This document shows, piece after piece, positions 7,604 through 11,269 of a stretch of 64,000 nt of DNA. This DNA comes from Escherichia phage vB_EcoM_LNA2: the sequence record MZ311865.1. One strand, given 5' to 3'. Under the pieces are notes generated by a model. That model searched no databases, was not told the DNA's origin, and saw only the letters and a list, made by a program, of their open reading frames with translations. How positions within the stretch are numbered: position 1 is the first letter of the stretch; each line of letters opens with the position of its first letter. The translations under genes were made by a program, and so were the position numbers.

Positions 7604-10600
7604 ATGGCTACATTAAAACAGATACAATTTAAAAGAAGCAAAGTAGCAGGAGTTAATCCTACTGCAGCACAATTAGCCGAAGGCGAATTAGCGATAAACT
7701 TAAAAGATCGAACTCTTTTTACTAAAGATGACCTCGGTAATATTATTAGCCTAGGCTTTGCTAAGGGCGGGGATATTAACGGTAATGTAACTCAAAATGG
7801 AGATTATTTACAGAACGGTACATATAATCTCAATGGAAACCAGTTTGTTTATGCAGGAAAATATATTGAATTTTTACCTAAAACTGCAGGCAATGGTGCT
7901 TGGGCTAACCAACATCTGAATAAAGCTCCTATCTTTACAGATTTGAGTTCAACTACTTCTGTTTCAGAATATCATCCGCTGATTAAACAACGCTATAAAG
8001 ATGGAACTTTTTCTGTTGGTACGTTAGTAAACGAAGGAAGTTTTAAAATTCATTTTATGAATGAATCTGGTGATTCGAAATATTGGACGTTTCGCCGTGA
8101 CGGTGGATTTACTGTTGATGGTGGAGGTTTAGCAGTATCAGGAGGTAGTATAACTACATCTGGAAATATTGCAGCTCTCGGAAATATTACTTCGCCTCAG
8201 ATTAATACTAAAAATATTATTTTAGACACAAAAGCATTTGGACAATACGATTCGCAATCATTAGTTCAATATGTTTATCCTGGAACAGGCGAAGAAAATG
8301 GTGTAAACTATCTTCGTAAAGTTCGCGCTAAATCAGGCGGAACTATTTACCACGAAATCGCTTCAGCTCAAACCGGTAAGAATGATGAAATTTCTTGGTG
8401 GACCGGAAATACACTTACTACTAAATTAATGGGCCTTCGTAATGATGGCGCAATGGTATTACGTCGTTCGCTTGCTATTGGCACAATTACCACTGACGAA
8501 AATACTAATAACTATGGCTCTCCTACTCCAATGGGAGAAAGATATATTGCTTTGGGCGATGCTGCCACTGGTTTAAAATACATTAAGCAGGGTGTTTATG
8601 ATTTAGTAGGTAATTGGAATTCTGTTGCTTCTATTACTCCAGATAGTTTCCGTAGTACTCGTAAAGGTATATTTGGCCGTTCCGAGGACCAAGGTGGAAC
8701 ATGGATAATGCCGGGAACCAATGCTGCTCTCTTGTCTGTTCAAACACAAGCTGATAATAACAATGCTGGAGACGGACAAACTCATATCGGGTACAACGCT
8801 GGCGGTAAAATGAACCACTATTTCCGCGGTACTGGTCAGATGAATATCAATACCCAACAAGGTATGAAAATTAACCCGGGTATTTTGAAACTGGTAACTG
8901 GCGGTGAAAGTATTAGCTTTAATGCCGCAACTGGAAGTATTAATTCTACATTAGCTTTTCGTCTTAATAAAGGCATAATTATTGATGGACCTGATAATCA
9001 GGGATTCCAGTTTAACGCCCCGACGGCTGCAGATGGTACTAGAAGTATATACTGGAACAGTGGTACTCGCGCAGGTCAAAACAAAATCCCTGTTACAGTT
9101 AAAGTGTGGGGTAATTCATTTAACGCATCTGGCGATCGTTCTCGTGAAACGGTTTTTGAAGTAGCTGATGGGCAAGGTTACCATTTTTATTCTCAACGCG
9201 TAGCTCCTGCTCCTGGTTCTACCGTCGGACCTATTCAATTTCGAGTTAATGGTGGTTTATTAACTTCAGGTAGTATTGTTACTTCTGGTTCTATTACAAC
9301 TGAATCTTCTTTAAGTGTTAATAATGGCATGTCAGTAAACGGACAAGCTAAATTCGGTGGAACAGCTGATGCATTAAGAATTTGGAATGCTGAATACGGC
9401 GCAATTTTCCGTCGTTCAGAAGCATCATTATATATTATCCCGACTCCTAAAGATGCTGGAGAATCAGGCGGTATAAGTAATCTTAGACCATTGATAATAG
9501 AACTGAACACTGGCACAGTTAAAATGTCGCATGATGTTCATTTAGGAGATTCTGGATCTGGTACAGGATTATTACAAGTAAGTAATAGTCTTAAAACTAT
9601 TAAAATGATATGTCCAGTAACTATTACTGAACGTAATGCAGCGCTTACTCTAGATTCTCCTTCATCTTCTTCTGCTAATTATTTACAGGGTTCTAAAGCT
9701 GGAACTAGAACGTGGTATGTTGGTCTTGGTGGCTCTGGAAATGATTTATCACTTTATAGTCAATCTTATGGACACGGTCTTGTTATAAGCGATAATTTCG
9801 TGGCAATCAGTAAACCTCTTAAAGTTGGAAATGCTCAATTCGGTACTGATGGTAACATTACTGGTGGTTCTGGTAATTTTGCTAACTTGAATACCACAAT
9901 AAATAACCTTAAGACGGATATTGTGTCGAGTTACCCAATTGGTGCTCCGATTCCTTGGCCTACTGATACACCTCCTGAAGGTTATGCCATAATGGAAGGT
10001 CAAACATTTGATGCTGGCTTGTATCCTAAGTTAGCTGCGGTGTATCCTTCCGGCACTCTGCCTGATATGCGTGGTCAAACTATCAAGGGTAAACCATCTG
10101 GGCGTGCTGTATTAAGTACAGAAGCGGACGGCGTTAAGTCACATAGCCATAGTGCAAGTGCATCAAGCACAGATTTGGGTACTAAAACTACGTCAAGCTT
10201 TGATTATGGTACTAAGACGACAAGTAGCTTCGACTATGGTACTAAGACCAGTAATACCACTGGTAACCATAACCATACCGTGAGTGGTAATACTGGTTCC
10301 GCTGGTGCGCACCAACACGCGCGTTCAGGTCCTCAGGTACAAGGCGGCATACCCACTAGCGTATTCTATGATGGATACAATAGTGCTGGTCCAAACGGCA
10401 ACGCTAAATTCACTGCAACCGTGAGCGGTGCTACTGCATCGTCGAATATGGCCAAAACTTCTTCAGACGGCGCCCACACCCATAGTTGGTCAGGAACTAC
10501 TAGCGCTACTGGTAACCATGCTCATACTGTGGGTATTGGTGCTCATACCCATTCGGTAGGTATTGGTGCCCACTCTCATTCGGTAGCGATTGGTTCTCAT

Positions 10601-10687
10601 GGCCATACTATCACTGTAAATAGTACAGGTAATACAGAAAACACGGTTAAAAACGTTGCTTTTAACTATATCGTTCGTTTAGCATAA
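7604..10687 (+). CDS. 37: long tail fibre distal subunit / receptor-binding protein gp37
   Basis: 1027 aa; N-term [20 protein letters not shown] like T4 gp37; C-terminal His-x-His repeats ([33 protein letters not shown]) typical of gp37 tip. Confidence 0.9.
10178..10249 (+). repeat. tandem 30-nt repeat (2.4 copies) inside gene 37
   Basis: ggtactaaaactacgtcaagctttgattat / ggtactaagacgacaagtagcttcgactat / ggtactaagacc encodes [10 protein letters not shown] x2.4. Confidence 0.6.
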
Positions 10688-10692
10688 GGAGA

Positions 10693-10714
10693 AGGGACTT
10701 CGGTCCCTTTTTAT
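10693..10714 (+). terminator. intrinsic terminator, UUCG tetraloop hairpin + T-run
   Basis: AGGGAC-TTCG-GTCCCT followed by TTTTAT, 6 nt after gene 37 stop. Confidence 0.55.
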
Positions 10715-10717
10715 AAC

Positions 10718-11269
10718 ATGAAACTCTATCATTATTATTTTGACACTAAAGAATTTTACAAAGAAGAAAATTATAAACCATTAAAAGGCGTAGGATTTCC
10801 GGCTCATTCGACACCAAAAAAACCTTTAGACCCTAAAGAAGGCTATGCTGTTATATTTGATGAACGCGAACAAGAATGGGTATATGTTGAAGACCATCGC
10901 GGAAAAACAGTATGGACTTATGATAAGCAAAAAATTGTTATTGACACCCCAGGTGCTCTTCAAAATGTTACTACAGAAGAACCTGGTGAATTTGACATTT
11001 GGACCGGTGACGGGTGGAAGGAAGATGAAGCATATAAACGCGTAGTTCAACGTGATAAGAAAATTCATGAACTCTATAAATTATTCAGTGTTTTAAGTTC
11101 TCTTATTGACGCAGAGGTTGCTAATAGAGAAGAAAAACGAAAATTTAAAGAGCTCAAAAAATTCTTTGCTCTTTTAGAAAAACATGAACATCTTGGCGGC
11201 GAATTCCCTAAATTCCCTGACCTTGAAAACAAATCTATTATCAAAGCGATTATAAATATCTTTAAGTAA
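10718..11269 (+). CDS. 38: tail fibre assembly chaperone gp38 (T4-type)
   Basis: 183 aa; MKLYHYYFDTKEFYKEENYKP... matches recalled T4 gp38. Confidence 0.85.
   Translation: MKLYHYYFDTKEFYKEENYKPLKGVGFPAHSTPKKPLDPKEGYAVIFDEREQEWVYVEDHRGKTVWTYDKQKIVIDTPGALQNVTTEEPGEFDIWTGDGWKEDEAYKRVVQRDKKIHELYKLFSVLSSLIDAEVANREEKRKFKELKKFFALLEKHEHLGGEFPKFPDLENKSIIKAIINIFK
11251..11258 (+). promoter_or_regulatory. T4-type late promoter TATAAATA upstream of holin t
   Basis: Exact TATAAATA inside 3' end of gene 38, 20 nt upstream of t ATG. Confidence 0.45.

What the first reader, a model, noticed from the sequence alone, without database searches (positions are those of the whole stretch)
10140..10620. gp37 receptor-binding tip: tandem decapeptide duplication and dense His-x-His repeats
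The distal part of gp37 contains an in-frame tandem 30-nt duplication ([10 protein letters not shown] repeated) followed by at least seven H-x-H motifs (NHNHT, AHQHA, AHTHS, NHAHT, AHTHS, AHSHS, SHGHT). Such motifs form the metal-coordinating needle of the T4 fibre tip. The tandem repeat is a likely site of length variation affecting host range.
Basis: partly seen in the sequence, partly recalled or inferred. Interest (0 to 1): 0.35.

Follow-up and report, generated by a model that had tools for sequence, protein, structure and literature searches.

The report
T4-type tail-fibre needle, one module longer
This is the ordinary metal-binding needle at the tip of a T4-like phage's long tail fibre, and its repeated ten-residue peptide is half of a paired structural module that makes the needle one unit longer than T4's, not a free-running host-range switch.

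Summary
ORF 7604-10687 encodes a 1027-aa gp37. Its last 278 residues match the solved T4 gp37 tip (PDB 2XGF, E 1.7e-87). [10 protein letters not shown] occurs twice in tandem (10178-10237). There are eight H-x-H motifs, not seven: SHSHS at 10142-10150 was missed. All 16 histidines of the tip sit in H-x-H pairs.

Against T4, the window has +10 aa going up and +9 aa coming down.

In 246 unique homologous tips, the number of 10-aa units on the outgoing strand equals the number of 9-aa His-box units on the returning strand (1 to 6). One tip is an exception. The duplication is therefore one half of a two-strand needle module, which predicts eight metal sites against T4's seven.

The copy number is not unstable. 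The two copies share 22 of 30 nt, and 31 of 31 sampled related phage genomes have exactly the same length. Published T4 receptor contacts lie in the head (here 10319-10474). The same needle carries different heads in other phages.

This is a known kind of structure. Any host-range effect of the repeat is indirect at best.

The parts
7604..10687 (+). gene 37 homologue, the long tail fibre distal subunit (1027 aa plus stop)
   Evidence: ORF and translation. It is 59% identical to T4 gp37. Pfam gp37_trimer and Collar domains are found. The tip matches PDB 2xgf at E 1.7e-87.
9941..10084 (+). collar (knob, D10) domain, residues 780-827
   Evidence: Pfam PF07484, E 8.5e-11. It aligns to the T4 collar in 2xgf.
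   Evidence: It aligns to T4 His883/885.
10178..10237 (+). two tandem 30-nt units, each encoding [10 protein letters not shown] (outgoing strand of the stem)
   Evidence: TRF; 22/30 nt identical, 10/10 aa. T4 has one such unit.
10238..10267 (+). third, degenerate 10-aa unit [10 protein letters not shown], which leads into the second H-x-H
   Evidence: The terminal unit has consensus GTK(S/T)TNxTGx in 241 tips.
10268..10318 (+). outgoing 14-aa His module, running from NHNHT (His889/891) to AHQHA (His903/905)
   Evidence: The 14-aa spacing matches T4 His915/917 to His929/931.
10319..10474 (+). head (tip) domain, residues 906-957, the probable receptor-binding surface
   Evidence: This is the variable region in alignments. 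It corresponds to T4 932-959, where receptor mutations map. Identity to the window head is 39/51 for HX01, 26/51 for TuIa and 9/51 for T4.
10475..10525 (+). returning 14-aa His module, running from AHTHS (His958/960) to NHAHT (His972/974)
   Evidence: The number of such modules matches the number on the outgoing strand in all 208 machine-parsed tips.
10532..10612 (+). three tandem 27-nt units encoding [18 protein letters not shown] and AIGSHGHTI (returning strand). The middle unit (10559-10585) is extra relative to T4.
   Evidence: period 27; unit comparison; 9-aa gap in T4.
10613..10684 (+). conserved C-terminal segment [24 protein letters not shown], which returns to the knob
   Evidence: It is nearly invariant across 48 homologues. 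T4 D10 includes residues 1010-1026.
10689..10712 (+). C(UUCG)G tetraloop hairpin between the gene 37 stop and the gene 38 start. This is context, not part of the needle.
   Evidence: -14.3 kcal/mol, z -3.3. T4 has the same layout.
10718..11269 (+). gene 38 homologue, the T4-type tail fibre assembly chaperone (183 aa)
   Evidence: It is 66% identical to T4 gp38 and matches Pfam Caudo_TAP.

Best explanation
The interval 10140-10620 encodes domain D11 of a T4-type gp37. D11 is a trimeric hairpin needle: each chain runs out from the collar, forms a small head, and returns.

H-x-H pairs from the three chains stack along the axis and each coordinates one metal ion (iron in T4).

The stem is built from two kinds of paired modules:
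- Module A pairs a 10-aa unit without histidine on the outgoing strand ([10 protein letters not shown]) with a 9-aa His-box unit on the returning strand ((G/A)IGAHxH(T/S)V).
- Module B pairs a 14-aa His-box unit on each strand.

T4 has two A modules and the window has three. The 'tandem decapeptide duplication' is therefore the outgoing half of one extra A module. Its returning half is the extra 27-nt unit at 10559-10585.

The predicted result is a needle with eight metal sites instead of seven. I estimate it is roughly 2.5-3 nm longer. The head (10319-10474), which carries receptor specificity, is a separate and exchangeable cassette.

Shown here: the homology, the two insertions relative to T4, and the near-perfect matching of unit numbers across the family.

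Inferred: that the two units lie side by side in the fold, that the eighth H-x-H binds metal, and the length gain.
For: Homology and the two insertions:
- The tip matches 2xgf at E 1.7e-87. The alignment shows a 10-aa insertion ([10 protein letters not shown]) on the outgoing strand and a 9-aa insertion (VGIGAHxHS) on the returning strand.

Spacing of H-x-H motifs in homologous tips. The tips come from three searches plus T4:
- The gap between the first and second outgoing H-x-H is 12+10k residues, and the returning strand then has exactly k spacings of 9.
- Among 208 machine-parsed unique tips the counts were k=1 x1, k=2 x100, k=3 x98, k=4 x6, k=5 x1 and k=6 x1, with one exception.
- A further 38 tips read by eye all obey the rule.
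- Six fetched phage records also obey it.
- The totals were 381 outgoing FDY-type units against 380 returning non-terminal units in 241 tips.

Other matched features:
- The 12-15-aa His modules are matched on the two strands in 208/208 tips (0/0, 1/1 or 2/2). One tip has a 12/12 size variant.
- Head length varies freely, from 33 to 70 residues.

Register:
- Two published T4 contacts are G921-F970 and G964-H929 (PMC6957217). They give an antiparallel register of i+j of about 1892.
- That register places the T4 decapeptide 895-904 opposite residues 987-998, GAHTHTVAIGSH.

Scaffold versus head:
- The same k=3 needle carries heads of 37, 55 and 56 aa in Mosigvirus, Tequatrovirus and Gaprivervirus phages.
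- Partial DNA matches break at the His boxes.
Against: - No structure of a three-module needle was available. The AlphaFold2 monomer model was useless (pLDDT 52.9), so the side-by-side position of the two extra units rests on extrapolating two published contacts by about 25 residues.
- One contig (L002) has three outgoing units but only two returning units. A mismatch can therefore at least be assembled from reads.
- The tips are related by descent and recombination, so the 245 concordant cases are not independent events. The minimum number of independent matched changes is about five for k and two for the 14-aa module.
- Metal binding by the eighth site is untested.
Confidence: 0.85

Rival explanations
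1. The 30-nt tandem repeat is a slippage- or recombination-prone site, and its copy number changes readily and alters host range.
For: - Copy number differs across the family, from 1 to 6 units.
- In one relative (L001) the two copies are 30/30 nt identical, and in TuIa they are 27/30. Copies are therefore sometimes homogenised or re-duplicated.
- T4 host-range mutants with duplications in gene 37 that extend the range to Yersinia are reported by Tetart et al. 1996, as cited in PMC7002106 and PMC5221442.
- L002 shows that a unit can be lost on one strand.
Against: - In the window the copies share only 22/30 nt, and the longest shared run is 8 nt within the copies.
- All 31 single-piece full-length matches, at 81-93% identity and drawn as a spread sample of 200 phage records, have exactly the query length.
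- The changes seen across the family are coupled on both strands.
- The unit is highly conserved, whereas specificity-determining parts are not.
- Receptor mutations map to the head.
Confidence: 0.08
2. The matching of unit numbers on the two strands reflects only co-inheritance. The two repeat arrays lie about 330 nt apart and travel together, and there is no structural requirement for a match.
For: - Tips are exchanged as blocks, and most of the 246 tips fall in a few classes.
- Parsimony on a tree built from short flanking sequence cannot separate new indels from recombination.
Against: - Six different k states are each matched.
- Three states of the 14-aa module are each matched, and a 12/12 size variant also matches. 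This needs at least seven independent paired changes and no unpaired ones.
- Head length, which lies between the two arrays, varies freely.
- Recombination breakpoints fall between the arrays. Linkage is therefore broken in practice, yet only one mismatch is seen.
Confidence: 0.07
3. The decapeptide surface takes part directly in receptor binding along the side of the needle. This is the 'transversal' docking mode proposed for T4 and OmpC. Under this reading, a second copy adds a binding site.
For: A docking model that uses both head and needle was proposed by Bartual et al. 2010, as summarised in PMC5221442. The unit is rich in exposed polar residues (T, S, K, D).
Against: - The unit is nearly invariant across tips with unrelated heads, from lytic T4-like phages and from E. 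coli prophage fibres.
- Mutational mapping in T4 found the functional residues in the head. Stem positions behaved as folding determinants.
Confidence: 0.05

Closest known systems
Bacteriophage T4 gp37 receptor-binding tip (PDB 2XGF; domains D10 knob and D11 stem plus tip)
   Same: - The collar, the hairpin stem with H-x-H motifs on both strands, and the conserved C-terminus ...NTVKN(I/V)AFNYIVRLA are shared.
- The downstream gp38 chaperone and the gene order 34-35-36-37-38-t are shared.
   Different: - The window has one extra 10-aa unit on the outgoing strand and one extra 9-aa His-box unit on the returning strand.
- It has eight H-x-H motifs against seven.
- Its head is 51 aa against 33 aa, with only 9/51 identical residues.
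gp37 of phage TuIa (GenBank X55190) and of Mosigvirus/Tequatrovirus phages such as HX01, phiD1, JS09 and VR25
   Same: - The needle architecture is identical: H-x-H spacing 42, 14, head, 14, 9, 9, 9, with two [10 protein letters not shown]-type units.
- HX01 has the same head type, 39/51 identical.
- The region is 91-94% identical in DNA to the nearest records.
   Different: There are only point differences. No record in the phage collection is more than 94.4% identical over 9900-10700.
Side tail fibre tips of lambdoid and other E. coli prophages (Collar PF07484 plus Phage_fiber repeat PF03335)
   Same: The same collar, stem modules and C-terminus are present at 56-70% identity. The same pairing rule for repeat numbers applies.
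   Different: The N-terminal fibre shafts differ. The heads differ, and module numbers range from 1 to 6.
T2/S16-type distal fibre (gp37 with a cleaved intramolecular chaperone, capped by a gp38 adhesin)
   Same: The position in the genome and the role as distal half-fibre are the same.
   Different: Here gp38 is the T4-type chaperone, not an adhesin with glycine-rich motifs. gp37 keeps its own His-box needle and head (descriptions in PMC3157838 and PMC7917993).

Membership tests
T4-type gp37 receptor-binding tip (2XGF fold) | Sequence homology across knob, stem and C-terminus to the solved T4 fragment | tested here: met
   phmmer E 1.7e-87; query residues 750-1027 align to chain residues 2-242.
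T4-type gp37 receptor-binding tip (2XGF fold) | Phage tail collar domain immediately before the stem | tested here: met
   PF07484 at residues 780-827, E 8.5e-11.
T4-type gp37 receptor-binding tip (2XGF fold) | H-x-H motifs on both outgoing and returning strands, flanking a variable head | tested here: met
   There are three outgoing and five returning motifs. Every His of the tip is in H-x-H, and 0 of 20,000 shuffles reach 8 motifs.
T4-type gp37 receptor-binding tip (2XGF fold) | Dedicated gp38-type chaperone gene directly downstream | tested here: met
   ORF 10718-11269 is 66% identical to T4 gp38 and matches PF02413.
T4-type gp37 receptor-binding tip (2XGF fold) | Homotrimer with octahedrally coordinated iron at each H-x-H layer | not testable with these tools
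   Only a monomer prediction was possible, and it was poor (pLDDT 52.9). Seven irons in T4 are taken from PMC6957217.
T4-type gp37 receptor-binding tip (2XGF fold) | Requirement for the general chaperone gp57A | not tested
   I did not look for gene 57A in the window.
T2/S16-type fibre end (gp38 adhesin) | gp38 of about 260 aa with glycine-rich motifs and hypervariable loops, and gp37 ending in a cleaved chaperone module | tested here: not met
   gp38 here is 183 aa and T4-chaperone-like. gp37 ends in the T4-type NYIVRLA.
Hypervariable (contingency-type) tandem repeat | Near-identical DNA copies | tested here: not met
   The decapeptide units share 22/30 nt and the first two His-box units share 23/27 nt.
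Hypervariable (contingency-type) tandem repeat | Copy-number differences among closely related genomes | tested here: not met
   All 31 single-piece full-length matches at 81-93% identity have exactly the query length. 38 of the 40 best hits span the full 801-nt query with an identical span.

The most novel reading that the evidence does not exclude
Needle length may be a tunable, quantised trait. Paired 10-aa/9-aa modules (1 to 6 seen in nature) would act as a ruler that sets how far the head projects beyond the knob. That distance could be matched to the depth of the receptor under LPS, O-antigen or capsule. Length would change by unequal recombination in the two repeat arrays. Transient mismatched intermediates such as L002 would be viable and would themselves have altered host range. 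That would link this architecture to the gene 37 duplications reported for T4 host-range mutants.
Probability: 0.2. Interest if true: 0.5.

Novelty: already known. Interest (0 to 1): 0.27.

Why it matters
For the window itself it matters little. This is a standard T4-type fibre tip of a class that was already sequenced in phage TuIa and is present in more than a hundred phage genomes.

The useful by-product is a simple rule that I did not find stated in the papers I could read. The number of [10 protein letters not shown]-type units on the outgoing strand equals the number of 9-aa His-box units on the returning strand. The same holds for the 14-aa modules.

The rule has three practical uses:
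- It tells annotators how many metal sites to expect from sequence alone.
- It flags mismatched tips, such as L002, as likely recombinants, defective fibres or assembly errors.
- It tells anyone engineering fibre tips that stem repeats must be added or removed in pairs, while heads can be swapped at the His boxes.

Tried and rejected
- AlphaFold2 monomer prediction of residues 750-1027, using a 48-sequence alignment, gave pLDDT 52.9 and pTM 0.22. That is too poor to read strand pairing, so I ran no fold search.
- The primary papers Bartual et al. 2010 and Tetart et al. 1996 are not held. Structural facts come from later open papers that summarise them. The exact segment duplicated in the T4 host-range mutants could not be checked.
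- A search for 'His boxes' with gp37 found nothing.
- I first read the exception L002 as an independent, uncompensated duplication of the decapeptide, because both its units have the codon pattern of unit 1. I rejected this after finding phage TH54. TH54 has the same outgoing strand and head (98.5% nt over 460 nt) with a full three-unit returning strand. L002 has therefore lost a returning unit. The cause could be unequal crossover, deletion or assembly collapse.
- An exact-match scan of metagenome contigs for the L002 decapeptide junction found nothing. The exception remains a single contig.
- I first thought the duplication was uniformly ancient, because window unit 2 is 29/30 identical to unit 2 of the distant L005. 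That needed softening: the relative L001 has 30/30 identical copies and TuIa has 27/30. Some lineages homogenise the copies.
- Fitch parsimony on a tree of the flanking sequences gave about 34 changes in k. I do not rely on this number, because recombination of whole tips would inflate it.
Full report
**What is in the sequence**

ORF 7604..10687 on the + strand encodes 1027 aa.

The peptide [10 protein letters not shown] occurs twice in tandem (10178-10207 and 10208-10237). It is followed by a degenerate third unit, [10 protein letters not shown]. Tandem Repeats Finder reports a period-30 array.

The two full copies are identical in protein but share only 22 of 30 nucleotides. All eight differences are synonymous, and one serine is TCA in the first copy and AGT in the second.

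There is an eighth, SHSHS at 10142-10150. All 16 histidines of the last 187 residues are in H-x-H pairs, whereas the first 840 residues contain no H-x-H. None of 20,000 shuffles of the tip reached eight motifs; the mean was 1.3.

It encodes [18 protein letters not shown] and AIGSHGHTI.

**What the gene is**

- The protein is 59% identical to T4 gp37 over its length.
- Its last 278 residues match the solved T4 tip fragment (PDB 2XGF) at E 1.7e-87.
- Pfam finds the gp37 trimerisation region and the tail collar domain.
- The neighbouring genes follow the T4 order 34, 35, 36, 37, 38, t.
- The next ORF (10718-11269) is 66% identical to the T4 gp38 chaperone. This is therefore the T4 type of fibre end, not the T2/S16 type with a gp38 adhesin.
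- Elsewhere in the window the DNA is about 98% identical to RB69-like phages of the genus Mosigvirus.
- Over 9900-10700 the best match in the phage collection is 94.4%.

**How the tip compares with T4**

In T4 each chain leaves the knob, runs to the tip, turns and comes back. Both termini sit in the knob, and seven iron atoms are held along the needle by histidines (PMC6957217 and PMC9603124).

The alignment to T4 shows three differences:
- ten extra residues on the outgoing strand, which are one [10 protein letters not shown] unit;
- nine extra residues on the returning strand, which are one VGIGAHxHS unit;
- a longer and unrelated head.

In T4 the first histidines of the motifs are at 883, 915 and 929 going out, and at 966, 980, 989 and 998 coming back. 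In the window they are at 847, 889 and 903, and at 958, 972, 981, 990 and 999.

**The pairing rule**

I pooled tips from three sources, plus T4 and the window: a search of the large protein collection, a search of cluster representatives, and IMG/VR contigs. This gave 251 unique tips.

In every assessable tip but one, the gap between the first and second outgoing H-x-H is 12+10k residues, and the returning strand ends with exactly k spacings of nine. Counts among the 208 machine-parsed tips were:

| k | tips | notes |
|---|---|---|
| 1 | 1 | |
| 2 | 100 | includes T4 |
| 3 | 98 | includes the window |
| 4 | 6 | |
| 5 | 1 | |
| 6 | 1 | |

One further parsed tip, L002, breaks the rule and is not in the table; it brings the total to 208 and is described under 'The one exception' below.

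- Thirty-eight tips that my parser had skipped also obey the rule when read directly.
- Six phage records fetched separately obey it too.
- Counted as units, 241 tips hold 381 outgoing FDY-type units and 380 returning non-terminal His-box units.

The 12-15-residue His modules next to the head are matched in the same way. They occur as 0/0, 1/1 or 2/2 in 208 of 208 tips, and one tip has a 12/12 size variant. The head between them varies freely from 33 to 70 residues.

**Why I read this as structure and not only linkage**

Six k states, three states of the 14-residue module and one size variant are all matched. That needs at least seven paired changes and no unpaired ones. Meanwhile the segment between the two arrays changes length freely, and similarity between phages often breaks at the His boxes on either side of the head.

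Two published T4 contacts, G921 with F970 and G964 with H929, give an antiparallel register of i+j of about 1892. That register places the T4 decapeptide 895-904 opposite residues 987-998, GAHTHTVAIGSH, which is the His-box repeat region. This extrapolates by about 25 residues and could be off by a few positions.

The consensus of the outgoing unit keeps G1, K3, F8, D9 and Y10 at 93-98%. The returning unit keeps G3, H5 and H7 at 99-100%. This fits an inner, metal-binding returning strand with small residues, and an outer strand that contributes aromatics. The 10:9 ratio would follow if the outgoing strand takes a slightly longer path per unit of rise. That last point is inference.

**The one exception**

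Contig L002 has three outgoing units and only two returning spacings.
- Its outgoing strand and head are 98.5% identical in DNA to phage TH54, which has the full three returning units. L002 has therefore lost one 27-nt unit.
- Whether this happened by unequal crossover, deletion or assembly collapse cannot be told from the sequence.
- No second contig with its junction was found.

**Is the repeat a site of length variation?**

- Across the whole family it is, but only in step with its partner on the other strand.
- Within the allele class of the window it is not. In a spread sample of 200 matching phage records, all 31 single-piece full-length matches (81-93% identity) have exactly the length of the query. 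38 of the 40 best hits span the full 801-nt query with an identical span.
- DNA identity between the two copies ranges from 22/30 in the window to 30/30 in L001. L001 is a 170,822-bp IMG/VR contig, the same length as the record of phage VR25. So copies are sometimes homogenised, but the number stays at two.
- Window unit 2 is 29/30 identical to unit 2 of a distant relative, L005. In this lineage the two copies have therefore been distinct for a long time.

**Is it involved in receptor binding?**

- In T4, loss-of-function and host-range mutations map to head residues 932-959. Tested stem positions behave as folding determinants.
- The window's decapeptides lie in the stem, 28-47 residues before the head.
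- The same three-module needle carries heads of 37, 55 and 56 residues in different T4-like phages.
- The window's head is 39/51 identical to that of HX01, 26/51 to TuIa and 9/51 to T4.
- Specificity therefore resides in the head cassette. The repeat belongs to the conserved scaffold.
- A lateral docking mode involving the needle has been proposed for T4. The near-invariance of the unit across unrelated heads argues against a role in specificity.
- Duplications in gene 37 that extend T4's range to Yersinia are reported by Tetart et al. 1996 (cited). I could not read that paper to see which segment was duplicated.

**Verdict**

- The identification as a gp37 metal-binding needle is correct.
- The claim that the repeat is a likely host-range-altering length polymorphism is only weakly supported. 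It is the outgoing half of a paired stem module that makes this needle one unit longer than T4's and predicts an eighth metal site.
- The same architecture is present in phage TuIa (GenBank X55190) and in many sequenced phages, so the feature is already known.
- The pairing rule is a modest, testable addition.

Noticed in passing
window 10685-10720: The gene 37 stop codon overlaps a GGAG. A hairpin with a C(UUCG)G tetraloop follows at 10689-10712 (-14.3 kcal/mol, z -3.3), then a U-run, then the gene 38 AUG at 10718. T4 has the same layout with one compensatory G-C to A-U change in the stem, but without the U-run. The Shine-Dalgarno sequence is about 27 nt from the AUG unless the hairpin brings it closer. 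From memory, this is the arrangement described for T4 gene 38.
   Followed up: partly
L002 (IMG/VR 3300030021_000020), locus 1813-2244: This is the only tip out of 246 in which the outgoing and returning repeat numbers disagree (three against two). It is otherwise 98.5% identical to phage TH54 through the head. It could be a real unequal-crossover product or an assembly collapse.
   Followed up: partly
L001 (170,822-bp IMG/VR contig, same length as the phage VR25 record), decapeptide units: The two 30-nt decapeptide units are 30/30 identical here. They are 27/30 in TuIa and 22/30 in the window. Some lineages therefore homogenise or re-duplicate the copies while keeping two of them.
   Followed up: partly
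window 10100-10650 compared with phage records: Partial DNA matches end at query positions 165, 195 or 207, or begin at 363-445. These points are at the His boxes on either side of the head. This fits exchange of head cassettes by recombination in the conserved motifs.
   Followed up: partly
proteins P0040, P0044, P0046, P0048, P0049: Proteins from E. coli genome and prophage records that end in this same tip are named 'terminase large subunit, partial' or 'tail tape measure protein'. They carry precomputed PF05876 or PF09718 hits. They may be odd fusions, or the names may be wrong.
   Followed up: no
window 7604-9850 (gp37 residues 1-750): The shaft differs from T4 gp37 by many large insertions and deletions, while residues around 340-433 are almost identical to T4. 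The gene is mosaic well beyond the tip.
   Followed up: no
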